The translations under genes were made by a program, and so were the position numbers. Source: Geosiphon pyriformis uo1 (lineage: Eukaryota; Fungi; Glomeromycota). From it: a stretch of 64,000 nt of DNA. Where the stretch lies: contig JAAOMT010000414.1 of the NCBI GenBank assembly GCA_016748015.1, positions 90,481-154,480 of the forward strand. The letters are read 5' to 3'. The notes below the pieces were generated by a model. That model was not told the origin of the DNA. It made no database searches and worked only from the letters and a program-made list of their open reading frames with translations. Of this stretch, positions 2,830-63,700 are shown in pieces (within the stretch, counting starts at the first letter, position 1; every line of letters starts with the position of its first letter).

Positions 2830-3528
2830 TACAACAAAATTGTATTACAATGGAAATAGTATTTTTAATTCAGATATATATTTATTCTTTAAATTTCTTT
2901 GGTTTTAATTTAAACTTTAATTTCTGTTTTGTAGTTCTGGATAAAAAACAATCAAAAAAAACTCTTTTAATATTCATCAAAAAAAATTTCTATTGGAATT
3001 AGAAAGATTATCTGAACTGAAAATTTAAGTAATATCAATAAAAATAATTACCACAAAAATTTTTTTAACTTATAATAAAAAATTTGAGTAAAAAAGTCTA
3101 ATATTAACAATTAAACAACTAATTCAAAAAAAACCCAATTTTCAAATTAAAGCTGATTCTTTAGAGTTAATAAAAGATTTATTGTAAATGATTATTAATT
3201 AAAAAAATAATAAGTAAGAATATTTGAAATAGATTTCAATTTTAGTGTTATAGTTAAAACCTATACTTCTTATTAATTATCACATATATTAGCCATTGAT
3301 GTTATATAATTAGCCACTCTATTTTTAGATAGTAATTATTAACTTAATCAATAACTTGACTGTTAATCTGATCATTAATCTGATTATTGACTACTTTTGA
3401 TAGCTATATAAGTAATAAATCTCTTAGCAGTAAAAAAACATGTAAGAATCAAAGAAAGAAAAAAAATAAAATAACAACTTCATCTCAATTTTTCTCTTTT
3501 CCTATCTTTAAGTATCTGAACATCTTGG

Positions 3529-4437
3529 TGTTATTCATAAAAAGAAAACAGAGATAGAGAAAATAGGAGACCAATAAGCAAATAGTATATAGCATGTGAA
3601 CACATTGCTCAGCAATGTAGAGCAATGTCAGAAAACATGGCACATTGCTCAGCAATGTGGAGCAATATTAAAAAACATAGCACATTGCTCAGTAATGTAG
3701 AGCAATATTAGAAAATGAGAGCACATTGCTCAGTAAAATGAGCATTTCTCAAGAAATTATAGCACATTACTCGGAAATATGAGCAATCTCATAAAACATC
3801 AATTATGTATATATAGTGGTAGCATTAGAAATAAAAAGAGCAGAATCCTTCCATTAGAATCTTTTAGTTAGAAATCTTTCATCCACAAATATTAAATAAA
3901 ATAAATCATTTACCATCCAAATCCACTCTCTACTATCAACATAAAGTGTTGATAGTAATTGATACTTAACCATACTGGAACAATAGCTCTTGATTACAGC
4001 TATTGATGGATTCTAACTTGCGCATTGTCTTGGCCCATTTTTTTATTTTCTTCTTTATTTTCTTTTATTTTTCTTTTCTTGATTTTATTGTTGTATACTA
4101 ACTGAGTAAAAATTAAAAGTGCTGAAGTAATTGATGTCATAGATAGCCTGGTAAAAAACTCAGAAATAAGGGTAAAATTATATATATATTAATGGATAGC
4201 TTACTAAAAGAGCATAAATGCCAAAATAAACCAGCCACCAAGCTGAAGACAGAAATTGGGAACACAACTTACCAACCAACTACATTGTTATTGAATCTCT
4301 GTTCATTATACAAAGAACTCAACTCTAAAACCTTCAGATACAATCAACATACTAATAACACCAGCATTGTCAAGATACTGAGCACCAAATTATGGATTTG
4401 TTATTTGATTTAAGACTCCAAATAATCATCTGTAACA
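3529..4437 (+). repeat. 5' LTR of A
   Basis: tgtta...tgtaaca; ~40-bp palindromic U3 repeats 3601-3790; TATATATA ~3808; matches 19078-20870. Confidence 0.92.
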
Positions 4438-4439
4438 TT

Positions 4440-4455
4440 TGGTGCTCTCTGTGAG
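4440..4455 (+). promoter_or_regulatory. Primer-binding site tggtgctctctgtgag
   Basis: Starts 2 nt after the LTR end with TGG; homologues at ~22580, ~47041, ~52392 and ~61689. Complementary to a tRNA ending ..CUCACAGRGAGCACCA; tRNA identity uncertain (elongator Met- or Ile-like). Confidence 0.8.
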
Positions 4456-7408
4456 ATATAATCCTATAGAGAACCTGCACCATCAACAATCATCCAAAAG
4501 TGGCAGAATCAGAAATCATAGGAACAAATCATTTAGGATTCACTAAATTCTTATTCCAACAGTATAGTCAACAATTAGGATTGAACAATAATCATTTCCC
4601 AGTAGAATCAGCCTTCAACTTCTATATCAACAATAAAATCACAGATTGCTTAGGAGGAACAGTTAACATTGAATTAGCAAGAGAAAACTTCTATACAGAA
4701 TTATTTCAACATACCAGCTTACCAAAAAACTACAGTTTCACACCAATTATTAGGGAAATCAATCAAACCATTGAAAGGTATACACAACAACAATTCCCCA
4801 TCACCTATGCAGATAAAGGCAAAAGAAGATTGCAAACCCCAACAGTAATACCAAAACAAATCCAACCACTCAATTGGAAAAAAACCTGAGTTGAATCATC
4901 CACCCATCCATCATACTATTATATGCCCAAAAGTATCATTAACATTTCATTAACAGATGTGTCCACATCAAACATGACATCAACCTTTGGACACTTCCCA
5001 TTTCAAAGTAAACAATGAAAAGAAGAGTTATTAGGACCATATGGTGATTACTTTGAAGGATTTAAATCACGATTGTCAATGCCATCAAGATTTCAATCAC
5101 CACTACTACAGCCAGATTTTGGAACCATGAGTTCCTAAAAATTAACAGAATCAGAAGAGGAACAAGAAGAAGAAAAAGAATCTGAAGATCAAGAATTTAC
5201 TTACCAGAACCCGATCTCAGAAAATCCAGAAATTGAAACTCCAAATTTTCAAATGCAGCAAATCAGAACAATCGAAACCCCAACATTAATAATCAACAAC
5301 ACTTACCTCCAGTAATTATGATCAATCCACCTTCAGCTCTACCAATTAACAAACAACAACAACAGTCACTCCAACCATTCCAACAACCACAGCAGCCACT
5401 TCAATAGCCACAACAACAATTACAACCACCACAACAACAACCCCAACTAGACTTAGATCCAATAGCCTATGTTCCAATAGCAAAACTCAAGAAATTCACT
5501 GGCAAAGAGAATGATGCCCAAGTATGGCTAAATGATATGAAGAAAGCCATAGTGGCTAATGGATGGAATAATGCCAGAGTCATGCAAGCCATCCCATATT
5601 TTTTCTAAAATACCACCAATTCATGGTATTAAAGCCTGGTCAACAAACCCCAAGATTTTAATGCATTTAAAATTGAGTTCTTAAGATACTTCAGCAACAA
5701 CAACAGCATTAACAAGCTAGCAAACATCTTCACTACCATCAAACAAGGGGAAAATGAAGCAGTCACTACTTACTTAGGATGCTTTTACAGGAATCTGCAC
5801 CAAATCCAAGCCATCAATGCCAATTATTTCACAGTGGCCCAGATTCTAAATCAGTTTATTTGTGAATTACATAGCAGTATCTTACAATGCTGTTACAGGA
5901 TGGTTTTCTTGTTATATTTAATTGCTGATATTCCGCTTTAATTGCAATCAGTTTTTCGTGAGTTCTTCAATTTTATTTGTGTGATAATGTCACTGTTACA
6001 CTGAAGGCTTTCTTTTTACTGTTGCAATGTAAGTTATTCTTTAATTCTTGATTGTTGTGTGTGTATATGTACTCCTTTTCAGAGGCTGAACTGAAATCTA
6101 CCCACTGTCTGGGGTCTTCTCTGAGGCTATCCTTGCAATTGCCTGATGTGTTTCTCTAATCTAGAAACACAGAATGTTAATGGTCTTTAGCGCTTTTCTA
6201 ATTCTCACAATAAAGCTTTTATCAATTAGTAACAACGTGAATAATCTTGATCAAGGATTATTCTTCCAAGAGATTCAGTTGATGAATGATAGTTTCATTC
6301 AATAAATAATACAAGTAAGTTTCTTAATACNNNNNNNNNNNNNNNNNNNNTCTTGGTTTCTGGACTGGCTGCTTGTTCCAGTGACTGGTCTTGTGATTGT
6401 TTTTTCGCTGGTCTCTTTTTCGGATTCTGATTCAGACTCCTCTTCACGGTTTTCAAACCCTGTTCTAAATTTTGGCTGAAAAAGAGGGTTTTGGAATAGT
6501 GATGAATATCCTCCTGTAATTGGTATGTCTCCCCAGTTACGTTGTTTAATTTTATCAATATAACTAGGAGTTCTTGGCATTTGTGGAGTTGATGTTGATG
6601 ATGATGCAGCTCCTAATGGAATTTGTATCTTATTTTCTGGTGAAAAATGGTATGATTTATCTTCTGGTGAATAAATACGTTGTTTCTTTATTGATTGAGT
6701 GACAGTTTTCTTTGGCATTTGAGCTGGTGTTTCTAGTTTTTGCTGGTTACTTTCCTGATTAATTTCTAAATTTTCTTTGGTTTTGTTGGCGCGTTCCCTA
6801 GTGTTTCCTGTGGATATTGGAAAATTTTCGTTGATGTATTGCTCAATTTCTCGATGGATTTTGACAATAGTTGTGGCTATTACTGCTACTTCTTTTGTAG
6901 TATATTGTGATAATTCTCTATACAATCCAAGNNNNNNNNNNNNNNNNNNNNCTTTTTGATATTTCAATCTGGTGCTTGCTGCTATCACCAGTTGGTGTTG
7001 GCTGCTATTGTGAACTGGTGCTTGCCACTATCGCGAGATGGTGTTTGCTACTATGTTAATCATTACCTTTCTAAGATTATTACTGTGCTATATTATGATT
7101 GAATAGTTTGTATTATTTTTATGATTCTTTTTGCTAAATTCTTAAACCATAACATTATCCCCTCCTTTCAAGATTGAGCTCCGTCAAAATCGAAGTTAAT
7201 TTCTTCATTAAATTCTAAGTTACTATAGTGGTTCAATACTGTGTTATTAATTTGTTGAAGTGAGTTCACAGTAGAGGGCGATTTCTGGGAAATTTAGAAT
7301 TTCTTGTGGTGTTGACGCGTTTTCTAGCTCCGTTCCGAGGTATCCAATGATGGTATCTTCCGGAATGTAGACGGGTTCTTCTGTGGTGTTTGCGATAGGA
7401 ATTTTTAT

Positions 7409-10099: not shown

Positions 10100-11480
10100 T
10101 TGACTATGGTTAGCTTTTTTCTCGATTCAAGGGCTCTGGCGAGCGTAACGGCTTCTGGTAAGGAATTAGGGTGGGCAGAGCATACTCTTGCTAAAATGCT
10201 GCTTTTTAATCCTCTAATAAACTGATTTAAAACCTGAGGATCAGTGTAGTATCCTTGTTCAATCGCTTCAATCTGACGGCGAATTCGATTGAATCGAGCA
10301 AGGTATTGGGTGACAGTTTCACCGGTATTTTGCTTGATAGTATTGAATTTGTTCTGTAGTTGGATTACGGCATTTGGGTCGCTAAAATACTCCAGGAGTG
10401 CATTTTTAAATTCGGCAAAGCTCGTGGGTTTTGTTTCCAGGCTTTGATACCACGAGTCGGCTGTGCCTTTCAGGAAGAAAGATAATGTTTGAATTGCTCT
10501 TTGGTCGTTCCAGTTATTTGCCTGGATGGCTTTTTGTGCTTCTCTGAGCCATGTGTGCACGTCCGTTTCTTCTTCCTCTCCTGAGAAATCTGTTAGTCTT
10601 GCAATGTATAGTGTGGTCATTTCATTGCCGTTTTCTGCTGGTGGGTTTATTGGTCTAAGAGGAGGTGGGATAATATTTTCTTGAGCATTCCTAAAGGTGG
10701 CTTCCCTTATATCCGGTTCTTCCTTTTGATCATGAGTTTCTTGGTTTCTGGACTGGCTGCTTGTTCCAGTGACTGGTTTTGTGATTGTTTTTTCGCTGGT
10801 CTCTTTTTCGGATTCTGATTCAGACTCCTCTTCACGGTTTTCAAACCCCGTTCTAAATTTTGGCTGAAAAAGAGGGTTTTGAAATAGTGATGAATATCCT
10901 CCTATAATTGGTATGTCTCCCCAGTTACGTTGTTTAATTTTATCAATATAACTAGGAGTTTTTGGCGTTTGTGGAGTTGATGTTAATGATGATGCAGCTC
11001 CTAATGGAATTTGTATCTTATTTTCTGGTGAAAAATGGTATGATTTATCTTCTGGTGAATAAATACGTTGTTTCTTTATTGATTGAGTGACAGTTTTCTT
11101 TGGTGTTTGAGCTGGTGTTTCTAGTTTTTGCTGGTTACTTTCCTGATTAGTTTCTAAATTTTCTTTGGTTTTGTTGGTGCGTTCCCTAGTGTTTCCTGTG
11201 GATATTGGAAAATTTTTGTTGGCATATTGCTCAATTTCTCGATGGATTTTGACAAGAGTTGCGGCTATTACTGCTACTTCTTTTGTAGTGTATTGTGATA
11301 ATTCTCTATACAATCCAAGTTTTGCGTCGTGTGGTTCTTCTTCCTTTCCTATATGATAATTTATTCTGGCGTTGATATAATAAGTGAGAGCAGATTCTGC
11401 TGGACAACACCCTTCTGGTAATCCAAGATCACTTTGATTTTGTGTGTAAATAGCACGGCAGAATTCAAGAACAGTAAGAT
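10084..11480 (-). CDS. B gag (N-terminal extension plus capsid); 5' end in gap; small deletion frameshifts it from the downstream ORF
   Basis: IARLTDFSGEEEETDVHTWL, LKGTADSWY, KQNTGETVTQY and QFIRGL capsid motifs. Confidence 0.85.
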
Positions 11481-16990: not shown

Positions 16991-18367
16991 ATAAATACAC
17001 AAAAATACTAACAACTACAACATTATATAAATACCCAATTGTTCAAGGAGAAATTATCTCAAAAGGAATAAAACAACATAAAACAACAATTAAAATATTT
17101 TATCAATCATCAAAATATACTTTACCAGAAGAACAGAAGAAATCCAAATCAACCAACCAGAGTAATCACAGAACCAGGAAAAGAAACAATATTATTCAAC
17201 ATGCATTCAGATCCAACAACAGGACATTTTTATAAAGAAGTGACCATAGAAAGAACCAGAAAAAAATATTATTGGCCATCAATGTATCCAGACATCATCC
17301 AATATGTTCAAAATTGTAATGCTTGTCAAAGAAGAGAAGAAACAAAACTAAGTGAACTATTAAGACCAACCAAAGTGGGACAACCATTCAATTGCATTAG
17401 AATTGACTTAGTCAGACCATTAACAATCACCAATAGAGGCAACAGATATATTGCAGTAGCTATAGACTATTTCACAAAATGGCCAGAAGCAAAAGCCATT
17501 CAAAGAGCAGATGCAGAATCCATTGCCAAATTTGTCCATTAAAATTTGATTTGTTGACATGGATGTCCAAAAGAACTACTATCAGATCAAAGAATCCACT
17601 TTGTGAATAGAACATTAACAGAATTAAGTCAGAGATTTGGGATAAAAAGACCATTATTATCACCATATCATCCACAAACCAATAGACTAGTTAAAAAATT
17701 CAATAGAACACTGTGTAAAGCAATCACCAAAATCAGTCAAGAAAACTAAGATGAATGAGATTTGTTTATACCATTAGTATTATTTGCTTATCGGACAATG
17801 AAGCAAGACACTATACAAACAACACCATTTGAATTAGTATATGGTAGAACAGCAACATTACCAGTTGAGATGGAAGTTACCACTTATCCAACAAAACCAA
17901 TAACTGAAGACAATTTTTAGAAAACATTGCTAAAAAGAATATATGACTTAATAGAAACATTAGAAAATAAATGGCAAAGAGCAGCTGATAACATCCAAAA
18001 GTCACAAAAAAAACAAAAAAAAAGACATAATAATTAACTACCAAACAAACCAGTTGAATTCAAAATTGGAGACAAAGTACTTCTACATCATACCAAAGCG
18101 GAAAAACAATAGAATAGAAAATTCGATCTCAAATGGGACAAACCATTTTACATAAAAAAAATTCTTGGAAATGGAGCTTATAAATTAAGATGGAACAACA
18201 AAATTTTAACCAAAGCAGCACATGGTGATCGACTGAAACTATATCACTAAATAGTATTATCATCCACCAATAACATTCCACAATTGGGAGTACAACGAAT
18301 ACTAGTTCAACCAGATGAGATTCCATGAAATCTGGGACCAATCATAATCATTAGACTAAACATGTAA
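16991..18367 (+). pseudogene. Integrase ORF of A (separate from pol)
   Basis: HSDPTTGH..CNAC zinc finger; IDL/SDQ/GLVERFN-like DDE core; KWD(G)PF (GPY/F) motif; no chromodomain; preceded by TAA at 16958 and 16982. Confidence 0.85.
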
Positions 18368-18427
18368 AATCAAACAATAAAAGAGTATATAAAGATACAG
18401 TATACATGACAAAAACAACCAAGAAAA

Positions 18428-19063
18428 ATAGAAATACCAGATCATATTCATGCCATAGCTCAACAATTATTCCAGGCCTTAAGTCAACAACTTTTAGACA
18501 TAGAAATTATCATTAACAACCAAACAATTTGCTATCAAAACACCAAAAGAAAAACAAAAAATACACCATATTAGCAGTTACCAAAGAATGATAAAAACTG
18601 GTTAGATAGCATAATAAAAAAAGTAAAAAACACTTTTGGGAAAATACCTATTATGGCACCAACAGAAAAACTTACAAAAAAGAATTAGAAGCAATGGACA
18701 AAACAACTTCCAATATTATACTGTTACTATTAATTAGGTCGAAAGTTAAATATTCAAGAGTTGTATATCAACAAATCCAAGAGAATATTTAACCAAAACA
18801 TAATACAGCAAATTGAAGAATTTATTGAGAAAAAAGTGAACTCAACACTACATGTGAGAACAATTTATTGACTGCACAACATATTTCAGAACTATCTAGA
18901 AATACTGTTATATTCTGACATGGAAACCATAACCATTAATCAATGAGGAAGAATAAACAATACACAAGTAGAAGATGTGAAGAACAGAGTTGAACAAACA
19001 ATACTAGAAAAAGAAGTATTAGAGCTAATTCAGAATGAAGATTTCAATGAAGCTCAATATTAA
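18428..19063 (+). pseudogene. ORF3 of A (unknown ~210-aa protein between IN and PPT)
   Basis: (M)EIPDHIHAIAQQLFQ...EKEVLELIQNEDFNEAQY*; homologous to ORF3 at 30634, 34958 and 60167. Confidence 0.7.
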
Positions 19064-19077
19064 AAAGGAGGAGATAA

Positions 19078-20870
19078 TGTTACTCATAAAAAGAAAACAG
19101 AGATAGAGAAAATAGGAGACCAATAAGCGAATAGTATATAATACATGAACACATTGCTCAGCAATATAGAACAATGTTAGAAAACATGGCACATTGCTCA
19201 AGAAATCATAACACATTGCTTGGAAATGTGAGCAATCTCATAGAACATCAATTATGTATATATAGTGGTAGTGTTAAAAGTAGAAAAAACAGTATTACTG
19301 GAGGTTTTTGGTCTCTTTTCTGTAATGTTGTTAATGCTTGTTTGCTGTGAATTCACGTTTTTTGGATGTGGTTGAATCTCCAGTAACTGAATTTATCTTC
19401 AAATTATCTTTTATAATTTGAACTGCTGGGCTTATAAGTGGAATGGCCAATTTCGTATCAGTTGCTTTGTGTAGTTACATTGTAGTAAATATCAACTCTT
19501 TCTCAGGAATTGCTCATCTGGAAGCTCACTAAAATGTGTAGTTACTTTGCTGTGAAAATCAAATTTTCTACAGGAATCTCATCTGTAGGCTACCCTAATG
19601 ATTATGATAAGAAAATAAAAGAAAGAAAATAAAAAAAATGTAAAAGAAATAGAATTCTGTTAAGGGAGACGTTTTCTATCCAGGCCTGAAATCACTAACA
19701 GTTTACTGAAATTAGTAGCTAATCAATTTCGAAATGTTAGTTGGGTTTTGGGGATTTTCCAAGTACAATAATTAAAGAATTTGGTTTTCAAATTATTTGA
19801 TGTTTATTTTGTTTTTGTATGTAAAGGATGATTCTAATTGTTAAATCTGAAGTAAGATACATTTTCTCAAAGAGAGAAGCTTTTTTTTTATACAACTTGT
19901 CATAACACTATTCTATGAACTTAAACTTTGCTATTTTCTATAATTTTACTGAACTAAAGATATATTTTGGCAAACTACAAGTTATTTCTGTGAACTATTA
20001 GATGTTTTAGTGAACTATCAATTATTTTGGCAAATTTCTTACAAATTTTGGCGAACTTTTGAATGTTACATAGTTTGGGATATTGCATGATTGATCATCA
20101 CAATTAGATTACATTTGTGTTATGTACAAATTGGGTTATTAATTAAATAATAATTTCAGATATTTTGCTAATGTAATAAGTGATAATTTGAAACGATAAT
20201 ATATGCTAATTAATGATAAAATTTATAAGAGTAATTTCATGCTAAACAATATCTCTAATTTCGTCTGGTAACAGCAGAATCCTTCCATTAGAATTCTTTA
20301 GTTAGAAATTTTTCATTCACAAATATTAAATAAAATAAATCATTTACCATTCAAATCCACTCTCCACTATCAACACTTCATGTTGATAGTAATTAATACT
20401 TAACTACACTAGAACAATAGCTCTTGATCACAGCTATTGATGGATCCTAACTTGTGCATTGTCTTGGCTCATTTCTTTATTTTCTTTTTTATTTTCTTTT
20501 ATTTTTCTTTTCTTGATTTATTGTTGTATACTAACTGAATAAAAATTAAAAGCACTGAAGTAATTGACATCACGGATAACCTGGTAAAAAACCCAGAAAT
20601 AAGAGTAAAATTATATATATATTAACAGATAGCTTACCAAAAGAGCACAAATGCCAGAATAAACCAGTCACCAAGCTGAAGACAGAAATTGGGAACACAA
20701 CTCACCAACCAATTATATTGTCATTGAATCTCTGTTCATTATACAAAGGACTCAACTCTAAAACTTTCAGATACAACCAACATACTAGTAACACCAGCAT
20801 TGTCAAGATACTGAGCACCAAGTTATGGAGTTGTTATTTGATTTGAGACTCCAAATAATCATCTGTAATA
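19078..20870 (+). repeat. 3' LTR of A, interrupted by solo LTR Y
   Basis: Follows the PPT aaaaaggaggagataa; alignment with the 5' LTR resumes at 20274. Confidence 0.9.
19293..20273 (-). repeat. Solo LTR family Y
   Basis: Termini tattactgga...tctggtaaca; TSD acag/gcag; ~21-nt ttttggcgaact-like repeats at ~19900-20060 then tataaaa on the minus strand. Confidence 0.8.
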
Positions 20871-21676
20871 TTAGGATAAAAAATTACTTGTTGGCATTTA
20901 CTTACTCTTTTTTTTGACTTGTATAATTGTAGTATTTGAAGATTATTAAATAAAATGTGACTAAAGAGTATATCTGATATCTAATATTAAATTCTAAGAG
21001 TGCTGACATAAAGCATAAAATTATATCAATGTGTAATCATTTGTTAACAGTATAGACTATCTCTCTACTTTTAAATTTCTTTATTATCTTTTGAAAAGTA
21101 TAGTGACTGAAATATTTTATGAGACTAATCTCACATATTGAATCCATACTTATTCAATTCACTCTTTGAAGTTGAATTTCTTTTGATTCTTTTTATCATC
21201 TTACAATCTTGTTCTCCCTTGCTATCTATTAATTTATTATTCCAATTTGTAACATTAGTATTACAATCTAGTTGTAACTTCTTATTTTCATATTCAATAG
21301 TTAACAATATGTTAAATTATTTATAAATTTACTATTTAAAGAAAAATATTTAGAATATTATAATGTAATCAAAGAGCCAAAATTCTTAAACATAATTAAA
21401 ATTAGTATTATGCACTTTTTTTTCATTAATTGCTTAATACTTGACATATGTTTTTTTATATTAGTGAAAAATTTGAAAAAAATATTATTTATTTATGAAT
21501 TTAATTAGAACTTGCAATTGATTTCGAAAATGCTATGTATTTTAATGATAATTCATGCATTTTCAAAGATGCCAAATTTTTACAAGTGAGAAGTTTATTA
21601 GGTCTTTACAAAAAAACCTGGGTTTTATTTACTTAAATTAATATGTTTTATATATTTTTTGCATTAAAATGAACTC

Positions 21677-24600
21677 TATTACTCGTAGAAAAGAATATAA
21701 GAAAAAATAATAGAAAAAACAAATAGAAAAAATAGACCAATAAAAGAATAGTATTGAGCATATGAGTATATTGCTCTTAAATTATGGCATATTGCTTAAC
21801 AATATGAATTATGGCACATTGCTTAGCAATATGAGCAATATTAATAGATTAGAACATATTGCTTAAGAAATTATAGCACATTGTTCATGAATATATAAGA
21901 TTTTATAGAACATTAATTATGTATATATAACAAAAGTATTAGAAGCAAAAAAGACAGAATCAATAAATAGAATTAATAGCTAGAACAAAACAGTTAAAAG
22001 CAATTTAAAATCCACATTTTATATTAATAAATTATTAATTATTACTTAAACTTATATTATTATCACTTAATTAAAGTATATCAATTATTTTTACTCTATT
22101 AACACTCTATGTTGATAGAATTTAATACTTAACTATACTGGACCAATAGCTTTTGATCACAGCTATTGATAGAATACTAATTCTTATTTTCTTTTATTTT
22201 CTTTGTTGTTTATTAATTTACTAATTGATTAAAAAGATTAAACACTGAGTAATTAATGTTAAAAATAGCCTGATAAAAAACCCCAAAGGAAAAGTATCAA
22301 GTTTAAGAATTTAAGAATAACTTATCAGAAGAGCATAACTGCCAGAATAAAACTGGCTATTATGTTGAAGAAAAAAATTGGATAGAATTGTAATTTTGAA
22401 AGACTATTAACACATTTATTAAATCTCTGTTCATTATACAAAGAACTCAACCAAAATTTTTAGACAACCAAAACTTTCAGATACCAAAACCTTTAAATAT
22501 TACCAACAATATAAGCTTTGAACACCAAGTTATGAGTTTGTTATTTGTTTTCATATCCCAAATAATTATCTTTAATAATTGGTACTTCTTATAAGGTATA
22601 ATTTAATAAAAAACTAGCACCAATAACAACCATCCAAAACAATAACAGAATTAAAAAAATAGAAACAAACTACTTGGAATTTACGAAATTTTTATTTTAA
22701 CATTACAAAAATTATCTTGGATTAACAGATAATAATTGGCCAACAAAATCAGTTTTTAATTGTTATATTAATAAAAGAATTGCATACTACTTAAGAGATT
22801 AAAGAGATTCAGAATCTGTTTTCAACAATTTCTTTAATGAATTACTCCAAACTATTACACTTCCACAAAACTATTTATTCATACCACAAATTACAGAAAT
22901 AAATAAGGAAATTAAAAAGTACACAAAACAAAGATTCCCTATTATTTTTGTTGACAAAAGAAAAAAAAGATTGTAAACACCAACAAAAACATCCAGGCAG
23001 ATACAACTACCCACCTGAAAGAAACCTAGAATTAAATCACTAATTAACTCATTATATTACCATACACATGGAAGTATCATCAACAAATGTGTTCACATTA
23101 AATATGAAAACACCATTAGCCAGGATCTTATTTCAGAATAAACAAAAAAAAACCAAACTACTAAGAACATATGGTAAATATTTTGAAGAATTTAATTTGC
23201 AATTAACAATACTATTAGGACTTTAATTATTATTACTACCACCAGATTTTGGAACTACCAGTTCTTGAAAAATAACAGATTCTGAGGAAAAAAAAAATAG
23301 CAATCAAGAAATTAATACTCAAAACCTGATTTCAGAAAACCTAGAAATTCAAACTTTGATTGTTCAAATCCAACCAATTCTAAGCAATCTAAATTCTGCT
23401 TTTATTGTTTCCTAAAACTTACCTCCAATAATTGTAATAAACCTACCAGTTCTCTAATTACCAAACAACAACAACAACAGTTACAACCACTACCATAATA
23501 ACAATTTTAACAGCAACCACAACCACAACAACAACAACTATTATTAGTACCAATAGTCTATACTCTAATTGTAAAACTCGAAAAATTCATTGGCAAAGAA
23601 AATAATATTCAAATATGACTTAATAATATAGAAAAGGTTATCACAGCCAATAAATGGGATAATGCCAGAGTATTATAAGCAATCTCATATTTTCTACAAG
23701 ATACTGTTGATTCATGGTATCAAAGTCTAATCCAGAAATCTCAAGACTTTAATATGTTTAAACTGGAATTTCTAAGATATTTTAATAATAATAATAATAG
23801 TATTGATTGCTTAACAAATACTTTTACAACCATCAAACAAGAAGATACTGAAACAGTTACCATTTATTTAGGATGCTTTTATAGAAATCTGCACCAAATA
23901 CAAGCAATTAATGCAAATTATTTTACAGTACCACAGATTTTAAATCAGTTCATTCACAGATTATGCAGTAGTATTTTACAATGTATATGTCTATTATATT
24001 TAAACACTCTTTAAGTTACAGTCACTCATATCAGAGACTTTAAATTGGCTGAATTAAAAGCCAATCATGCCCAAGCTGTAAATCTAATAATAAATAAATT
24101 ATCTGACTTAGACTCAAAATTGAAACAATTTAGCAACTTAATTAATTAAAAATTGGAAAAATACTTAGCTAACAATTAGGCCATTTATTAACCTCCATAA
24201 TGGCACAATAATCAAGAAAGTTCTAATCAATTTCAAAATCAGTTGTGTCTATTCTCAACAAATCAACAGTGACAGCAAGAAATATGTGTTTGCTACTATT
24301 GTAGTAAACAAAAACATTTGCAATTCAAATGTTGCAAATAGTTAAGTAATCAACAATCAGAAAATCAGTATCAAAACTCTAATCACCAATTTCAAATCCA
24401 GAATTATGTTAATAATTAATCATCCAAACAATATCAACATCAACTGTATTACACTCAAATAACACAGCCAATTTATTAACCACCTATCTATTAGCCATCA
24501 GCACTGGTAATTTATCAACCATCCCAGCCCCAAATTATTTATCAGTCCCAGCCAAATCAGAATCAGTCACAGAATTTATCTCAAAACAAAAACCAAAGAC

Positions 24601-30600: not shown

Positions 30601-32183
30601 ATGGTATATGTAATAAAAGCAACAAACAAAAAAATGGAAATTCCAAACCACATTTATTTAATGGCTTAACAATTATTCCAAGCTGTAAATCAACAACAAT
30701 TAGATATTAAAATTATTATTAATCACTAAACAATCTGTTATCAGAACACCAAAAGAAAAAAAAAGTAGGAAATACATCATATCAACAACCATTAAACTCA
30801 ATAAAATATTGATCAGATAAAATAATAGAAAAAGTAAAAAATACTTTTGAGAAAATATTCATAATTATTCTAATAGAGAAGCTAATAAAAAAAAGTTGAA
30901 AACACTAAACAAAACAACTTTCAATACTATACTGTTACTATTAATTAGAACAAAAGCTAAATATTCAAGAATTATATATTGACAAATCCAAAAAAATATT
31001 CAATCAAGAAATAATATGGCAAATTGAAAACATTATCAGAAAAAAAATAAACTTATCATTTCACATTAGAACAATTTATCGACTATATATTATATTTCAA
31101 AATTATTCAAAAATACTACTACACTCAGAAATAGAAACAATAATCATTAATCAATAAGGAAATATAAACAACTTACAAGTAGAAAACATAAGAACCAGAG
31201 TTGAACAAACAATATTAGATAAAAAAGTAATAGAATTTATCTAAAATAAAATTTCAACAGAGTTCAATATTAAAAAAAAAAGAGATAATATTACTCATAG
31301 AAAAGAGTACAAGAAAAAATAGTAGGAAAAACAAATAGGAAAAATAGACTAATAAAAGAATAGTATTAAACATATAAATATATTGCTTGTGAATTATGAC
31401 ATATTGCTTAGCAATATAAATATTGCTTGAGAAATTATAGCATATTGTTCACAAATGTGTAAAATCTTATAGAACATTAATTATGTATATATAGCAAAAG
31501 TATTAGAAGCAAAAAAGACAGAATTAATAAGTAAAATTAATAGCTAAAACAAAACAGTTAGAAGCAATTCAAAATTCATATTTCATATTAATAAATTATT
31601 AATTATCACTTAAACTTATGTTATCATCACTTAATTAAAGCATATCAATTATTTCCACTCTATCAACATTATATGTTAATAGAATCTGATACTTAACTAT
31701 ATTAAACCAATAGCTCTTGATTATAGCTATTAACAAAATACTAATTTTTATTTTATTTTTTTATTTTTTTTTTATTTTTTTTTATTTTTTTATTTTTTTT
31801 TTATTTTCTTTGTTGTTTGTTGATTTACTAATTGATTAAAAAAATTAAGCACTGAGTAATTGATGTTAAAAATAGTCTGATAAAAGACTCTAAAGGAAAG
31901 GTATCAAGTTTAAAAATTTAAGAATAGCTTATTAGAAGGACATAACTGTTAGAATAAAACCAACCACCACATTAAAGAAAAAAATTGAATGGAATTGCGA
32001 CTCCAAAAAACTATTGACACATATTAAATTTTTGTTCATTATACAAAGAACTTAACCAAAACTTTCAGACAACCAAAATCTTCAGATATTAAAACCTTCA
32101 AATATTACCAACAATATAAGCTATTAAGTACCAAATTATGGGTTTGTTATTTGTTTTTATACTCCAAATAATCATTTGTAACA
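21677..32183 (+). mobile_element. Full-length, older decayed LTR retrotransposon C (same lineage as A)
   Basis: LTRs 21677-22577 and 31289-32183; TSD actc/gctt (ancestral gctc); YLDD at ~28371; IN ATG 29203; ORF3 30634-31273; protease active-site region deleted at ~24838. Confidence 0.88.
27270..27938 (+). repeat. Solo LTR family X copy 2, inserted at the start of RT in C
   Basis: tattatgg...ccataaca termini; atac TSD (27266-27269, 27939-27942); 12-nt tgatca-type repeats then gctatataag. Confidence 0.88.
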
Positions 32184-34410: not shown

Positions 34411-36412
34411 TATATATATTTAACAGAATTAATAACAAAAGCCAACTTTTAAAAAACATTGCTAAAAAACATATAATCTAATAAAAACTTTAAAAAATAA
34501 AAAATAAAAAGCAGCTAATAATATATAAAAGTTACAAAAAAACAAAAACAAAAATATAACAACCAGTTATTAAATATACTGGTCGAATTTAAGATTGAAA
34601 ACAAAGTATTTTTATATTATATCAAAGTAAAAAAACAGTAAAATAAAAGAATTAACCTCAAATAAAACAGTTTATTTTACATTAAAAAAATTCTAGGAAA
34701 TAGAGCATATAAATTAAGATAAAATAACAAAATTTTAACCAAAACAGCACATAGTAATTGACTAAAACCATATTACAATATAGTATTATTATCTACTAGT
34801 AATATTTTATAACTGAAAGTACAAAAAATACTAATTAAACTAAATAAGATTTTATGAAATTTATAACCAATTATAATTATCAAAGAAAACACAAAAAAAT
34901 AAATCAAGATAAAAGTATATAAAAACACAATATATGCAATAAAAATAATAGTAAAAGATGGAAATTTCAGATTACATCTACATAATAACACAACAATTGT
35001 TTCAAGCCATAAATTAACAATAATAAGACATAAAAATCATTATTAATTACCAAACAATTTGTTATAAAAACACAAAAAGAGAAAAAAAACAAAAATTATT
35101 TTATATGAGCAATTATTAAGTTAAACAAAACATTAATCAAATAAAATTATAGAAAAAGTAAAGAACACTTTTAAGAAAATACCAGTTACTGTTTCAATAA
35201 AAGAACTAACTAAAAAAAATGAAAGTTATAAATAAAATAATTTCCAATAGTATACTATTACTATCAGTTGGAACAAAAGCTGAATATTCAAAAATTATAT
35301 ACCAATAAATACAAAAAAATGTTTAATCAAGAAATAATACAACAAATTAAAAACTTTATTAAAAAAAAAACAAATTTTATACTATATATTAAAACAATTT
35401 ATTAACTACATACCATATTTTAAAATTATCCAAAAATACTATTATATTTAAAAATAGAACTAATAACTATTAACCAGTAGAAAAAAATAACCAATTCTCA
35501 ATTTAAAGACATAAAAACCAAGATTAAACAAATAATATTAAAAAAAGAAATAATAAACTTAATTCAAAATAAAAATTTTGACAAAACTTAATATTAAAAA
35601 AAAAGATAATATTACTTATAAAAAAAAGTATCAAAAAACATAAGAAAAACAAATTTTAAAATAAACCAATAGAAGAATAGTACTTAATAAATAAGTATAT
35701 ATACAAGAAATTATGTTATATTTTTAAGAAATAACATAGAAAAAAGTAAAAATGTATAGAATTTTATATAACACAAATTATATATATATAATAAAAGTAT
35801 TAAAAGCAAAAAAAAACAGAATAATAGTTAGAAATAAGTAATTATCCAATACTTTTTTTTTAAAAAGATAGTTTTTTATAACTTAAAATAAAATTATACT
35901 CATATTAATAAAAATATTCATTATTATCTAATTTATGTTGTTATTATTTGATTAAGAAATATTAATTATTTTTATACTATTAACAATTTATACTGATAAA
36001 ATTTAATACTTAATTACACTAAACTAATAGCTTTTGATTATGACTATTAATGAAATAGTAATTTTTTATTTTATTTTTTTTATTTTTTTATTTTTTATTT
36101 TATTTTTTTTGTTATTTACTAATTAATTAAAAAATTAAGTACTAAGCAATTAACATCAAAGATAGCCTGGTAAAAAACCTGTAAAACAAGAATAGAAAAC
36201 TTAAAAATAGCTTACTAAAAGAGCATAACTGTTAGAATAAACTGGTTATTATACTAAAAAAAAAATTTACAGAAAAAACCATCAATTAAATCTTTGTTCA
36301 TTATATAAAAAACTTAACCAAAATCTTCAAAAATCACTATTATCAATAGCTATTAAGCACTAAGTTACAGATTTGTTATTTGTTTCAACACTTTAAATAA
36401 GTATCTGTAATA
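34411..36412 (+). mobile_element. 5'-truncated, highly decayed copy H (IN C-terminus, ORF3, PPT, 3' LTR 35610-36412)
   Basis: Aligns to 30110-32183; ORF3 ATG at 34958; LTR ends tgtaata. Confidence 0.8.
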
Positions 36413-46237: not shown

Positions 46238-49200
46238 TATTACTCATAGAATATAAAAAATATATTAACATATAAATTAGCCAATCAGAAGTAGCCATAG
46301 TAAATATGAAATTCCAGAATTTTTCTTAGAAGAATTACAAGATTCCAAGAATTTTAGAATTCTTATACAAGAAATCACAAGATTTCAGAATTCCAGAATT
46401 CTTCTTAAAAGAATTAAGAAATTTCAATTATGTATATACAGCAGTAGCATTAGAAAAAGAAAAAACAGATCTCTCAGTTTAGATTTGATTTAAGGAACCT
46501 TTTTATTTACAAATATCAATAAATAACTATTCACTATCTTAATCTATTCTCTACTATCAACACTTCATGTTGATAATAACTGATACTTAACCACACTGAA
46601 ATAATAGCTCTTAATCATGGCTATTAATGGAATACTAATATTTATTGTTTTGGCTTATTTCTTTATTTTTTTTCATTTTTTTCATTTATTTTCTTTTGTT
46701 ATTTCTTTTTGTTTTACTAATTGATTAAGGATTAAAAAGTGCTGAGTTACAGATGTCATAGGGACTGGTAAAAGACTTATGAAACAAGAGTAAAACACTC
46801 ATAATTGAGAATAGCTTACCAGAAGGATTACCAGCCACCATGCTAAGAATGAAATTCGATGGAATTGTGATTCTGGAAGACTACTGAAACAACAATTGAA
46901 TCTTTGTTTATTATACAAAAGACTCCACCAAAATCTTCAGATTATGAAAACCTTCAAAAATCAACATCATTAAATCAATTGAGCACCAAGTTATGGGTTT
47001 GTTATTTGCTATAAGACCCCAAATAATTACCTGTAACATTTGATGCTTCCTGTAAGATATAATTTTACAGAAAACCAGTACCAACAACAAGTCATCCAAA
47101 AATGGCAGAATCAGAAATAATAGAGACAAATCATTTAGGATTTGCCAAATCCTTATTTCAATAATACAGCCAACAATTGGACTTAACCAATAATTATTAT
47201 CTAGCAGAATTAGTTTTCAACTTTTATGTCAACAAAAAAATCACAGATTTTCTTAAAAGACCAGTTGACATTGAATTAGCAAGAGAAAATTTCTATACAG
47301 AATTAATCCAATATATCAGCTTACCACAAAATCACAATTTTGCACCAATTATCAGAGAAATTAATCAAAAAATTGAAAGATACACTCAATAACAATTCTC
47401 TATTACCTATGCAAATAAGGGTAAAGGAAAGTTACAAACACCAGCAGCAACTTCAAAAGGAATATAATTACCAACATGAAAGAAACAAAGAATTGAATCT
47501 CCACTATATCCATTATATCATTACATACTCAAAAGTACCATCAATATTACATCAGCAAGTGTGTTCACATTAAACATAATATTAACATTTAGATGACTTT
47601 TATTTCAAAGTAAACAAAAAAAAGCAGAATTATAGGGAACTTATAACAATTACTTTAAAGGATTCAAATCTCAATCTCCAACACTATCAGAATTTCAATC
47701 ACCATCACTTCAACCAGATTTTGGAACTGTGAGTCCCTGGGAGATAACCGAATTAGAAGAAAAGAAAAACAACAATTAGGAATTTAATTACCAGAATCTG
47801 ATTGTAGAAAACTCAGAAGTTGAAACTCTGAATATTCAAACTCAGGAAAATCAGAATAATCCAAATTCTAATATTAATAATTAACAATACTTACCTTTAA
47901 TAATTGTTATCAATCCACCATCAGTTGCCACACAACAACAACCATTGTTACAACCTCAAATTTAGTTACCACCTTAACAACAACAACAACAACAACAATA
48001 ACCAAACTTGGATTCAATGGCTTATGCTCCAATAGCAAAACTTGAAAAGTTTATGGGCAAAGAAGATGATGTCTAAATATGGCTCAATGATGTCAAAAAA
48101 GCCATCATGACCAATGGATGGAATGACACAAAAGCCCTCTAAGCCATTCCATATTTTCTCTAAAATACTGCCAACTCATGATATCAAAGCTTGGTTAACA
48201 AATTCCAAGATTTTAATGCATTCAAGCTTGTATTTCTACAATATTTCAGTAACAATAATAGCATTAACTGCTTGGCAAATACTTTTATCACCATTAAGCA
48301 AGAAAAAACTGAAGCAGTTACTACTTACCTAGAATGCTTCCATAGGAATCTGGACCAAATTCAGGCAATACAAACCAATTATTTTACAGCACCACAAATT
48401 TTAAATCAATTCATTTGAGACTTGTACAGTAGCATTCTCTAATGTATACATCCATTACACTTAGCAAATCTTCAAGCAGCAATTACCTATGTTAGAGATT
48501 TTGAAGCCACTGAATTAGAAGCCAATCATAATCAAGCTGTGAATTTAGTAATGAACAGATCATTTAATTTGGATTCCAAATTAAAACAATTCAGTAATTT
48601 GATCAATCAGAAATTAAAAGAATACTTAGCTAACAATCAGGCAATTTATTAATCTTCACAGTAATACAATAATCAAGAAAATGCAAACTGTTTCCAAAAT
48701 CAGTCATGTTTGTTATCATTAATCAATCAGCAATAGCAGTAGGAGATGTGTGTTTGCCATTATTGTGATAAACAAAAACATTTGAGGATTGACTGCAGAT
48801 TAAGAATAGATAACTAATGATTGGAAAATTAATATTAAAACCTTGATCACCAGTTTCAAACTCCGAGATATCAATTCAACCCAGAACTATATTAACCAAA
48901 TTATTTATTAGTGATACAGCTACCAAGTTATTAACCACCCATTTATTAGACTCCAATACCAGTTATTTATTAACTACAGTCACAAATAATATATTAATCT
49001 CAACAAATTCTAACACCAACACCAAACTCAGCTTAGATAACATCAAAAAATCCCAGATCTAAGGTCACTCAAAACTGGAGATCAGCAATAGTTGTTTACC
49101 AGCTGATTCCCAGCTCTTTAAATCAGTCATCAAGATTACATCAGTGGAATTCAGAAACCAAGTACACCCAAAATCCAAGTTTCCAGAACTATTTAAGTCT

Positions 49201-51557: not shown

Positions 51558-54500
51558 TGTTACTTATAAAATATAGGAAGTATATTAGCATATAAATTTG
51601 CCAATTAGAAATAGCTGTAGTAAATATGGAATTTCAGAATTTCTCTTAAGAAGAATTGCAGAATTCCAGGAATTTCAGGATTCTTGTACAAAGGAATTGC
51701 AGAATTCCAAAAATTTCAAGATTCCTGGTATGAAAAATTAAGAAATTGAGAAATCTCAATTATGTATATATAGCAGTAGTGTTAGAAACAGAAAGAAACA
51801 GAATATTTTAGTTAGAGACCTCCTAGTTTAGATTTGATCTAAGCAATCTTCTATTCACAAATATCAATAAATAATTATTCATTATCTTAATTCACTCTTT
51901 ACTATCAACACTTTATGTTGATAGTAATTAATACTTAAACACACTGGAACAATAGCTCTTGATCATGGCTATTGATGGGATACTAATATTTATTGCTTTG
52001 GCTTATCTTTTTTATTTTCTTTTATTTCTGTTATTTTTTTTGTTATACTAATTACTTGAAAATTAAGTGCTAAGTTATTGATGTTACAGATAGCCTAATA
52101 AAAGACTCCAAAGGAAGAGTATAGGAATTAAAAAGTTAAGAATAACTTACCAGAAGAGCATCTCTGCCAAGATTACTGACCACCATGCTGAGAAAAAAAT
52201 TCGATGGAATTGTAATACTAAGAGACTATTGAGAAGACAATCATTGAATCTCTGTTCATTATACAAAGAACTCTACAACAAAATCTTCAGATAAACAATG
52301 CCTTCAGATATTACCAATAACATTATCAATTAAGCATTAAGTTACAGATTTGTTATTTGATTTGAGACCCCAAATAATCACTTGTAATATTTGGTGCTCC
52401 CTGTGAAGTATAATTCTACAGAGAACCAGCACCAGCCAACAACCATCCAAAAGTGGCAGAATCAGAAATTATAGGGACAAACCATTTAGAATTTGCCAAA
52501 TCCTTATTTCAACAGTACAGCCAACAATTGGGCTTAACCAACAACCACTACCCAGCAAAATTTGCTTTCAACTTTTATGTCAACAAAAAAATTACAAACT
52601 GTCTAAGAAGAACAGTTGACATTGAATCAACAAAGGAAAACTTCTATACAGAATTATTTCAACACACCAGGTTATTAAGAAATCACAGTTTTGCACCAAT
52701 CATTAGGGAAATTAACCAAACCATTCAAAGATACACTCAACAACAATTTCTTATTACCTATGCAGACAAAGGCAAAGGAAAGTTACAAACACCAACAGTA
52801 ACACCTAAAAGAATACAACTACCAACTTAGAAGAAAACAAGAATAGAATTACCAACAAATCCATCATACTACTATATACCAGGAAGTGCTATCAACATTA
52901 TATCAACAGGTGCATTCACATCAACCATGACATCAATATTTGGATAATTCACATTTCAGAGTAAACAAAGGAAAGAAGATCTTCTAGGACCATATGGCAT
53001 GTATTTTGAAGGATTTAAGTTATGATTGTCAACACTATCAAGACTTCAATCCCCACCACCCCAACCAGATTTCAGAACCACGAGTTCTTGGAAAATAATG
53101 GAATCAGAAAGAGAACAGGAAGAACAGGAAGAAGAGGAAGAAGAATTTAAAGATCAAGAATTTACTTACCAGAACCCGATTCCTAAAAACCCGGAAGTTG
53201 AAACTTCAAATCTGCAAACTCAGCAATATTTAAACTTAGAAAATCCAGAAATCAGAACTCTGAATATTCAAGCACTGCCAAATCAGGACAATTCAAACCC
53301 CAAGTTAATTAATCAGCAAAACTTACTTTTAGTAATTGTCACTGATCAGCCATTCATTGAACAGATTTAACAGCAGTAAATACCACTACAGCAGCTATTA
53401 CAACAATCACTTCAATCACCACAACAATTAAACATAAATCCAATGGCCTATGCCCCAATAACAAAACTTGGAAAATTCACAGAAGCAGAGGACAATGCAC
53501 AAATATGGCTCAACAATATTGAAAAAGCCATTACAGCCAATGGATAGAATAACACGAGAGCTCTACAGGCCATCCCATATTTCTTACAGAATACTGCCGA
53601 CTTGTGGTATTAAAGTTTGGCCATTAAACCACAAACATTCTAGGAATTTAAAATTGCATTCTTGGAATATTTCAGTAATAATAACAGTATTAATTATCTA
53701 GCCAATACCTTCACCACCATCAAACAAGGAGAAAATGAAGCAGTTACTACTTACTTAGGATGCTTCCACAGAAATTTGCATCAAATCCAGACCATATAAG
53801 CTGATTATTTTACAGCACCACAAATTCTGAATCAATTCATTAGAGAACTGCACAGTAGTATCCTCCAGCACATATGTCCAATGCATTCAGCAGATCTTCA
53901 AGCTGTGGTTACAAACGCCAGAGATTTTGAATCAGTTGAACTCGAAGCAAACCATGCACAAACCATAAATCTAGTAATAAATAGATCATCTGAATTGGAT
54001 TCTAAACTAAAACAATTCAGTGATTTAATCAATTAGAAATTAGAAGAATACTTAGTTGACAATTGTGAAATTTATCAATTTCCCCAATAATGTAATAATC
54101 AAGAAAACTCAAATCATGTCCAAAATCAATCGCATCCAACATCATCAACCAATTAACCATGGCAACAGAAAACGTGTGTATGCCACTATTGTGGTAAACA
54201 AAGACATTTGCAATTTGAATGCTGAAAAAAGATAAGCAACCTAAGATCAGCTAATTAGTATCAAAACTTTAATTGCTAACTACAACCACAGAATTACATC
54301 AGTAATCAATTACTAAAACAATATCAACTAAATTACCTACCTATGACACAACAGCCAATCTATCAACTACCAGTTTATTAGCCAACAACACCCATAATTT
54401 ATCAACCATAGTTCCAGCTTATTTATTAGCCACAGTCTTAAGTAATTTATCAACTCCAACAAATTTAAACACTGCCACAAAACTTACCTCAAAATGGAAC

Positions 54501-60792: not shown

Positions 60793-63700
60793 TGTTACTT
60801 ATAAAAAGAAAACAGATATAAAAAATAGCAGATCAATAAGAGAATAATATTTAGCATGTGAGCATATTGCTTAGTAATATGGAGCAATATCAAAAATCAT
60901 AGCACATTGCTTAGCAATATAGAGCAATATCAGAAAGCAATATCAGAAAGCATGGCACATTGTTCAGCAATGTGGAGCGATGTTAGAAAATTAGGGCACA
61001 TTGTTCAGCAATGTGAGCATTGCTCAAGAAATCATAGCACATTACTCAAGAATGTGAGCAATCTTGTAGAACATCAATTATGTATATATAGCAGTAGCAT
61101 TAGAAGTAGAAAGAGCAGAATCTTTTGGTTAAAAATTTTCCATCCACAAATATTAAATAAATAAATTATTCACCATCCAAATCCACTCTCCACTATCAAC
61201 ACTTCATATTGATAGTAATTGATACTTAACCATGTTGGAACAATAGTTCTTGATCATAGCTATTGATAAGATACTAACTTGTACATCGTCTTGGCTTATT
61301 TCTTTATTTTCTTTTATTTCTTTTTTTCTTTAATTTTGTTGTTGTATATTAACTGATTAAAAATTAAAGCACTGAGTAATTAACGTCACAAATAGTCTGG
61401 TAAAAGACCCAGAAATAAGAGTAAAATTATATATATATTAACAGATAGCTTACCAGAAAGGCACAAATGCCAGAATAAACCAGCCACCAAGCTGAAAACA
61501 GAAATTGGGAACACAACTCACCAACCAACTACATTGTCATTGAATTTCTGTCTATTATACAAAGAACTCAATGCTAAAACCTTCAGATACAACCAACATA
61601 CCAATAACACCAGCTTTGTCAAGATATTGAGCACCAAGTTACAGATTTGTTATTTGATTTGAGGCCCCAAATAATCATTTGTAACATTTGATGCTCTCTG
61701 TGAGATATAATCTTACAGAGAACCAGTACCAACAACACCCATCCAAACAGTGGCAGAATTTAAAGAAACAGGAACAAATCATTTAGAATTTGCGAAATCC
61801 TTATTCCAACACTACTGTCAACATTTAGGATTAATCAACAACCACTTATCAGCAAAATCAGCTTTTAATTTCTACATCCACAAGAAAATCTCATATTTAT
61901 TAGGAGTACCAGTAGAAACCAACTCAGCCAGAAAAAACTTCTACAATGAATTAATCCAGAATACCAGCCTATCAACAAATTACAATTTCACAGCAATTCT
62001 CACTAAAATCAATAAAGAAATTGAAATTTACACTCAACAAAGATATTTAATTACCTATGTAAACAAAGGCAAAGGAAAACTGCAAACACCAGCAGTAACA
62101 CCCAAAAAGATACAACCACCCACTTGGAAGAAAACAAGAGTTGAGTCACCAATTAATCCATCATATTATTATACACCCAAAAGTGCCATCAATATTACAG
62201 ACGCATCCACATCAAACACAACATCAACCTTTGGACAATTTTTATTTCAGAGTAAACAAAAGAAAGAAGATCTTCTAGGACTATACGGCGCATATTTCAA
62301 AAGATTTAAGTCTCAATTGCTTATGCCATCAGGACTCCAATCTTCACTACCCCAACCAGATTTCAGAACTGCGAGTTTCTAAGACGTAACAGAATCAGAA
62401 AAAGACCAAGAAGAAAAGGAAGAAGAATCTGAAGATTAAGAATTTACTTACCAGAACCTGATCACTGGAAATTGAAACCCTAAACTTTCAGACTTAGCAA
62501 AATCTAAGTTTAAAAAATCCAGAAATTAAAACTCCAAATTTTCAAATGCAGCACAATCAAAACAATCAAAACTCCAATCTAATTAATTAACTGGACCTAC
62601 CTCCTGTTATCATTATTAACCCACCACCAGTTGAACCAATTGGCCAGCCACTACAACAACTACACCAGCAGATTCAACAGCCACTAATACCATTTCAACA
62701 ACCACCACAACCCAACTTAGATCCAATGGCATACACACCAATAGCCAAACTCAAAAAATTTACTGGCAAAGAGAACAATGTCCAAGTATGGCTAAATGAT
62801 ATGGAGAAAGCCATTGCAGCTAATGGATAGAATGACACCAGAGCCATGCAAGCCATCTCATATTTTCTCCAGAATACTGTCAATTTATGGTACCAAAGTC
62901 TGGTTAACAAACCCCAAGATTTTAATGCATTTAAAATTGAGTTTTTAAAATACTTCAGCAACAATAACAGCATTAACAAGCTAGCAAACATCTTCACTAC
63001 TATCAAACAAGAAGAAAATGAAGCAGTCACTATTTACTTAGAATGCTTCCATAGAAATCTGTGCCAGATCCAAGCCATTAATGCCAATTATTTTACAGTA
63101 GCCCAGATCCTAAATCAGTTTATTCACAGATTATACAGCAGCATCCTGCAATGCATATGTCCAATGCATCCCATCGATCTGCAAGCAGCTGTCACAAACA
63201 CCAGAGATTTTGAAGCCACTGAATTAGAAGCCAACCATGTCCAAGCCATTAATCTAGTAATGAATGGATCATCTGAATTGGATTCCAAATTGAAACAATT
63301 TAGCAATTCTATCAATTATAAATTAAAGGGATACTTAACTGACAATCACACAATTTATCAACCACCACAACGATGCAATAATTCTGGAAATGTGAATCAC
63401 TTCCAGAATCAGTCACATCCATCATTATTGACCAATCAACAGTGGCAACAGAAAATGCATGTTTGCTACTATTGTGGTAGACAAGAACACCTACAAATCA
63501 ATTACCACTATTGCTTAAATAACCAACAATTAGGAAATTAATATCAAAACCCTGATCACCAGTTTCAAATTCCGAATAACCCACCAAACTCAGAACCATA
63601 TCATCAGAATTACTTACCTATGATGCAACAGCCACCTTATCAATCACCAGTATATCAAATGCCAATTTATTAGCTGTAGTCACAACCAATTTATTAGCCA

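What the first reader, a model, noticed from the sequence alone, without database searches (positions are those of the whole stretch)
20415..20439. LTR hairpin with HIV-DIS-like geometry: stem sequence changes between families, palindromic loop is kept
A-type LTRs have tggaa-CAATAGCT-ct TGATCA c-AGCTATTG (3981, 20415, 22144, ~31708, 46602, 51950, 61241, with decay variants). The otherwise non-alignable B LTR (minus strand, 6263-6239) has tggaa-GAATAATC-ct TGATCA a-GATTATTC. That stem differs at four base pairs yet still pairs over 8 bp, with the same 9-nt loop and the same upstream tggaa. Established: the HIV-1 DIS is a 9-nt loop of 2 nt, a 6-nt palindrome and 1 nt that forms kissing dimers. 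Inference: a genome-dimerisation or packaging signal ~170 nt after the TATA box. A shared palindrome could also let B co-package with autonomous elements.
Basis: partly seen in the sequence, partly recalled or inferred. Interest (0 to 1): 0.75.

Follow-up and report, generated by a model that had tools for sequence, protein, structure and literature searches.

The report
Conserved palindromic hairpin in retrotransposon LTRs
Two distantly related families of jumping genes in a fungus keep the same small hairpin, with a self-complementary loop, in their terminal repeats; it likely helps two RNA copies pair up for packaging, but this is untested and it lacks the chemical hallmarks of the HIV signal it was compared with.

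Summary
The hairpin is real. It sits mid-LTR in two Ty3/gypsy families (A, B) whose Gag capsids are only 45-48% identical; the B proteins' database relatives are named Geosiphon pyriformis. All 8 A-type LTRs and the one readable B LTR carry it. Between A and B, 4 of 8 stem pairs change on both sides and still pair. A second helix, predicted from A alone, also covaries in B, so this is part of a conserved RNA module. The loop hexamer is intact in only 4 of 8 A copies; the others carry C>T/G>A changes. It is not an HIV-type DIS: AU-centred weak palindrome, pyrimidine flanks, and a place 360-450 nt upstream of the PBS. The closer analogue is Ty1 SL1 (PAL1/PAL2). Best reading (0.45): a Gag-chaperoned dimer/packaging hairpin in the 5' leader. 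Co-packaging of B with A is not supported: other B copies continue into their own RT start, and A-B duplexes are predicted weak. Covariation rests on one family contrast in one genome; no RNA data, so start site and function are unshown.

The parts
20415..20439 (+). HP2: 8-bp stem, 9-nt loop (2 nt + TGATCA + 1 nt); the finding. Copy in the 3' LTR of element A1
   Evidence: stem probability 0.99-1.0 in all contexts tried
20410..20414 (+). Single-stranded 5' flank, TGGAA in B and 3 of 8 A copies (TAGAA here)
20366..20390 (+). HP1: 10-bp stem, 5-nt loop, 25 nt upstream of HP2; outer pair A-T in five copies, T-A in two
20329..20339 (+). AATAAA hexamers 81-86 nt upstream of HP2 (81-118 nt in all 8 A copies); candidate poly(A) signal, inferred
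20470..20538 (+). T-rich tract (A only) ending in a TACTAAYTGA-type motif that B shares
20581..20640 (+). Helix P3 (20581-20587 with 20634-20640) enclosing a short hairpin P4; covaries with B
   Evidence: predicted from A only, tested on B
19078..20870 (+). 3' LTR of element A1, interrupted by a ~970-nt insertion (about 19294-20266) between TATA and hairpins
3529..4437 (+). 5' LTR of element A1 (909 bp, TGTTA...TAACA); TATA at 3808, HP2 at 3981-4005 with loop TGATTA
   Evidence: 4-bp target duplication with one mismatch
4380..4455 (+). U5 end and PBS-like stretch (TGG two bases after the LTR end) folded into one long hairpin that covers the PBS
   Evidence: local z -6.4
22144..22168 (+). HP2 copy, subfamily g2, loop intact
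31708..31732 (+). HP2 copy, g2, loop TGATTA
36025..36049 (+).
46602..46626 (+). HP2 copy, g3, loop TAATCA, closing U-G pair
51950..51974 (+). HP2 copy, g3, loop intact, closing U-G pair
61241..61265 (+). HP2 copy, g1, loop intact
6239..6263 (-). HP2 of family B; a 24-nt perfect palindrome with one extra base
   Evidence: 1167 contigs of run X1 lie on 6130-6330 and the listed differences in this hairpin are minority letters
6283..6301 (-). B analogue of HP1: 7-bp stem, 5-nt loop, different sequence
6078..6125 (-). B helix P3 (6125-6119 with 6084-6078) and inner hairpin P4
5891..12153 (-). B element: LTR, gag, protease, dUTPase, internal deletion, PPT, LTR; three N gaps; inserted in A1 with a 4-bp target duplication

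Best explanation
A conserved stem-loop inside the LTR of two fungal Ty3/gypsy families, predicted to lie in the 5' leader RNA, likely serves as the contact by which two genome copies pair for packaging. Shown: the hairpin, its covariation between families, its place between the TATA island and the PBS, and neighbouring helices that also covary. Inferred: transcription starts just after the TATA island, so the hairpin is in R/U5; the exposed UGAUCA loops of two RNAs touch weakly; the element's zinc-knuckle Gag/NC then melts the stems and forms a 22-24-bp intermolecular duplex, as Gag does for Ty1 SL1. Because the stems differ, the tight duplex would form within a family, not between A and B.
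For: Stem: 4 of 8 pairs changed on both sides, covariation score 0.337 against 0.186 +/- 0.035, 0 of 500 shuffles, best slid control 0.101. Out-of-sample check: helix P3 predicted from seven A LTRs keeps 6 of 7 pairs in B with 4 double changes after a structure-blind alignment. HP2 has no transversion or gap between the three A subfamilies, whose LTRs are 64-71% identical; identity rank 18 of 869 windows. Gag capsid A vs B 45-48%. Loop positions 2 and 9 vary between lineages (position 9 is C, T or A; position 2 has a non-decay variant in 66 contigs, 7.8% of depth, in B) while the six palindromic positions show only C>T/G>A changes. Loop unpaired with p 0.88-1.0 in two A copies. Homoduplex gain -11.2 to -15.2 kcal/mol against about -5 for loop shuffles (1-4 of 300 as good) and -3 for HP1. 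CCHC knuckle in B and in A copies. Precedent: Ty1 dimerises through AU-rich palindromes in a 5'UTR hairpin, with Gag (PMC6844567, introduction and passages read).
Against: All double changes in the inner stem come from one contrast, A vs B, in one genome; the tool's shuffle count is not a probability. The loop is a weak kissing partner: -5.0 kcal/mol, rank 37 of 64 hexamers, AU-centred and flanked by pyrimidines. A shuffled loop of this composition holds a 6-nt palindrome 6-13% of the time, and the whole 25-mer is a near-palindrome, so a palindromic loop may be a by-product of fold-back origin. The non-palindromic TGGAA flank is as conserved as the loop, which fits protein binding equally well. 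In B the hairpin competes with an alternative fold (stem probability 0.01 to 1.0 depending on the flanks), as it does in the A copy at 61241. The hairpin is predicted more stable on the antisense strand in 2 of 3 copies tested. No start site or poly(A) site is known.
Confidence: 0.45

Rival explanations
1. An RNA hairpin for 3'-end formation or strand transfer: HP1 and HP2 would set or mask the poly(A) site, or act in R or in minus-strand strong-stop DNA, like the TAR and poly(A) hairpins of retroviruses; the palindrome is incidental.
For: AATAAA lies 81-118 nt upstream of HP2 in all 8 A copies and a T-rich tract follows it, the usual order of LTR poly(A) signals (PMC3601003, passages read). 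The hairpin folds as well or better on the minus strand, as RNA and as DNA.
Against: B keeps both hairpins but lacks the T-rich tract and has its only readable AATAAA 286 nt downstream. AATAAA is common in such AT-rich DNA. The g3 closing U-G pair suits the sense strand only.
Confidence: 0.2
2. A monomeric protein-binding RNA element: the stem presents a fixed loop and 5' flank to Gag or to a host export or translation factor; no RNA-RNA contact is made.
For: TGGAA, the loop and two AAYTGA-type motifs are conserved in sequence while stems covary. Weak kissing energy.
Against: Only the six palindromic loop positions are free of non-decay changes, though this is few events.
Confidence: 0.15
3. 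A DNA element: a palindromic transcription-factor site downstream of the TATA box, kept symmetric by selection or by template-switch correction.
For: An unrelated solo-LTR-like element (27272-27939) has a short tandem repeat holding TGATCA just upstream of a TATA-like box. TGAT motifs recur through the cassette. B's hairpin is almost a perfect palindrome.
Against: A protein would not be expected to accept four changed arm positions that stay complementary; the long-range helix P3 also covaries and is not a local palindrome. TGATCA is not enriched in the window (35 against 28.7 +/- 5.7).
Confidence: 0.12
4. The transcript starts near the LTR end (Tf1-like self-priming), so the hairpin lies in U3 and is present only at the 3' end of the genomic RNA.
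For: A 9-10-nt stretch about 60 nt inside the LTR end pairs with the PBS-like sequence in a long hairpin in 5 of 5 copies followed by a PBS (weak in one), the geometry described for Tf1 (PMC7175516, passage read). A second highly conserved island lies about 80-95 nt upstream of it.
Against: The PBS-like stretch begins TGG two bases after the LTR end, as tRNA PBSs do, and the TATA island at LTR +280-300 is the best-conserved block between A and B. The host tRNA set was not available.
Confidence: 0.08

Closest known systems
Ty1 SL1 hairpin (PAL1/PAL2), S. cerevisiae
   Same: LTR retrotransposon; AU-rich self-complementary hairpin in the 5'UTR upstream of the PBS; dimer through an extended duplex that needs Gag (PMC6844567, abstract, introduction and passages read).
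   Different: Ty1 is a copia element; its palindromes form the stem arms around a 3-nt loop, whereas here the palindrome is in a 9-nt loop and the stem covaries. Ty1's role is shown, this one is not.
HIV-1 DIS (SL1)
   Same: 9-nt loop of 2+6+1 with a self-complementary hexamer on a conserved stem (PMC2943608, passage read).
   Different: HIV loops are GC-rich with two central G-C pairs, tolerate at most one A-U pair and need flanking purines (PMC5874298, first part of section 9 read). Here: central A-U, 4 A-U pairs, flanks C-U and C/U/A, and a place inside the LTR upstream of the PBS rather than in Psi.
ASLV L3, MPMV Pal SL, MMTV pal II and foamy-virus SII palindromes
   Same: Short hairpin or palindrome near the 5' end used as dimer contact (PMC5874298, passages and section 11 read).
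   Different: Those are retroviral; no sequence likeness was tested.
Ty3 dimer linkage
   Same: Same superfamily; Ty3 RNA is dimeric and NC promotes this (PMC4974528, passages read).
   Different: For Ty3 a tRNA-palindrome model was proposed and later questioned; the passages read name no element-encoded hairpin.

Membership tests
HIV-1-type DIS | 9-nt loop, 2+6+1, with a self-complementary hexamer | tested here: met
   5 of 9 copies intact; 4 of 9 carry one C>T or G>A change
HIV-1-type DIS | Stem kept by base pairing | tested here: met
HIV-1-type DIS | GC-rich palindrome with two central G-C pairs | tested here: not met
   UGAUCA: -5.0 kcal/mol against -7.9 and -10.9 for the HIV hexamers; criterion from PMC5874298
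HIV-1-type DIS | Purines flanking the hexamer | tested here: not met
   5' flank CT or TT in 9 of 9; 3' flank C, T or A; criterion from PMC2943608
HIV-1-type DIS | Located in the packaging region downstream of the PBS | tested here: not met
   348-451 nt upstream of the LTR end in 9 of 9
HIV-1-type DIS | Forms a loop-loop kissing dimer in vitro | not testable with these tools
   needs gels or probing
Ty1 SL1-type dimer hairpin | Lies in the transcribed 5' leader upstream of the PBS | tested here: inconclusive
   between TATA island and PBS; start site unknown
Ty1 SL1-type dimer hairpin | Can convert to an extended intermolecular duplex | tested here: met
   prediction only:
Ty1 SL1-type dimer hairpin | Palindromes form the stem arms around a 3-nt loop | tested here: not met
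   palindrome is in a 9-nt loop
Ty1 SL1-type dimer hairpin | Gag-dependent dimerisation; needed for mobility | not testable with these tools
   knuckle motif present, activity untested
Ty3/gypsy LTR retrotransposon (carrier element) | gag, protease, RT, RNase H, integrase in gypsy order | tested here: met
   Pfam gag, protease, dUTPase, integrase zinc domain on 10 of 21 ORFs scanned; RT and RNase H pieces recognised by eye in translations upstream of integrase
Ty3/gypsy LTR retrotransposon (carrier element) | TG...CA LTRs, PPT, PBS, target-site duplication | tested here: met
   B's PBS lies in an N gap
Any Rfam family | Match at gathering score | tested here: not met
   0 in the window; one chance-level hit, E 0.65, in 3500-7200

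The most novel reading that the evidence does not exclude
An element-encoded dimer linkage for Ty3/gypsy retrotransposons with a two-part code: a loop shared by all families of the lineage starts contact, and a family-private stem decides which RNAs lock into a tight dimer, so that cohabiting families sort self from non-self when packaging. It would be one helix of a conserved ~600-nt leader structure held inside the LTR.
Probability: 0.2. Interest if true: 0.72.

Novelty: new variant of a known kind. Interest (0 to 1): 0.45.

Why it matters
How Ty3/gypsy genomes dimerise is poorly defined: the reviews read here describe element-encoded palindromes for Ty1 and retroviruses but only a disputed tRNA model for Ty3. 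A 25-nt hairpin with natural compensatory variants gives a cheap in vitro test, including whether families that share a genome keep their RNAs apart. If the role is 3'-end formation or protein binding instead, it is still a conserved RNA module in the LTRs that cover about 41% of this genome (PMC11952901, passage read), but of modest general interest.

Tried and rejected
No whole genome is held, so no genome-wide LTR alignment or R-scape-type test. Searches for relatives in collections found none: viral contigs by protein and by pattern (one hit without a stem); metagenome contigs by pattern (one hit inside a bacterial glycosyltransferase-like gene with no stem; this used the only scan); bacterial genomes by pattern (none; the second scan was not used). 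An integrase alignment was too gappy to search with. Sequencing runs: no RNA holder listed; X2 and X3 laid nothing; X1 may be the window's own source, so it is not independent support, and its depths are no copy numbers. Both variant tables have exactly 30 rows and may be cut. Earlier findings: three look-ups, nothing. A model built with B finds only its 9 training copies at E below 0.2. First guesses of the LTR ends (near 4141 for A, near 6174 for B) were dropped once target duplications and PBS were found. Hammerhead, HDV-like and branch-point readings of nearby motifs were considered by eye from recalled consensus and dropped. Loop decay among copies was not counted against function: its rate in X1 (8% and 17%) is like that of other C/G sites nearby (7-15%), as expected after insertion. 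Literature: 10 searches; none listed this hairpin or family; two returned no paper. Subscription papers, the Geosiphon genome paper and all supplements were not seen.

Full report
Setting. The window is AT-rich DNA made almost wholly of nested repeats. Ten of 21 long ORFs were scanned; they carry retrotransposon gag, aspartyl protease, dUTPase and integrase domains, and RT and RNase H pieces are visible upstream of integrase. All 115 relatives of the B Gag are named Geosiphon pyriformis. LTR sequences cover 41.2% of that genome (PMC11952901, passage read). No whole genome is held.

Anatomy. A-type LTRs are 800-910 bp, from TGTTA to TAACA, followed by a PBS-like TGG stretch or preceded by a polypurine tract. 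There are eight copies in three subfamilies, 64-71% identical between subfamilies. The order inside is: variable U3 repeats, a TATA island, AATAAA, hairpin HP1, a 20-nt linker ending in TGGAA, hairpin HP2 (the finding), a T-rich tract, helix P3 with inner hairpin P4, and a long hairpin over the LTR end and PBS. The 20415 copy belongs to the 3' LTR of element A1 (3529-20870), which is split by a ~970-nt insertion; it would not be the copy that is read into a leader. Element B (12153-5891, minus) is inserted in A1 with a 4-bp target duplication; its LTRs are broken by N gaps.

Noticed in passing
window 4380-4455 (+), also at LTR ends 47038, 52389, 61686, 22577: A U5 stretch about 60 nt inside the LTR end is complementary to the LTR end plus PBS and forms a long hairpin (z -6.4) that hides the PBS; Tf1-like self-priming geometry or a gate on tRNA binding. 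The PBS recalls an elongator tRNA-Met 3' end (recalled, untested).
   Followed up: partly
window 20581-20640 (+) and 6125-6078 (-): Long-range helix P3 with inner hairpin P4 covaries between A and B; the 3' half of the LTR looks like a structured leader of about 600 nt.
   Followed up: yes
window 27272-27939, and 3248-3528 with 20871-21263: A third, 668-bp solo-LTR-like family with 11-12-bp terminal inverted repeats and a 4-bp target duplication; a 12-nt tandem repeat holding TGATCA forms a long imperfect hairpin (z -5.1 in one copy, weak in the other) just upstream of a TATA-like box followed at once by AATAAA.
   Followed up: partly
window 19294-20266: A ~970-nt insertion with short inverted ends splits the A1 3' LTR; probably a non-coding DNA element.
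   Followed up: no
window 18355-18870, 60272-60800, 30945-31154: A elements carry an extra reading frame of roughly 200 codons between integrase and the 3' LTR, of unknown kind.
   Followed up: no
window 7412-8020 (-), 14894-15625: dUTPase between protease and RT in both families, preceded by a Cys-rich linker; this position is reported for some fungal gypsy elements (PMC2864245, passage read).
   Followed up: partly
whole window; Changes among copies are overwhelmingly C>T and G>A, and the oldest copies fall to 16-20% GC; strong deamination-type decay.
   Followed up: no
window 37828-44385 (+): A 39% GC stretch with broken frames that look like a non-LTR retrotransposon (by eye, not scanned).
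   Followed up: no
window 6351-6931 between two 20-N gaps: A 97%-identical copy of B gag lies inside B's 3' LTR between scaffold gaps; likely a misplaced contig.
   Followed up: partly
window 14747-14776 and 50899-50927: A 10-bp stem with an ATGCAT-holding loop inside the A pol frame, just before dUTPase, in two copies.
   Followed up: no
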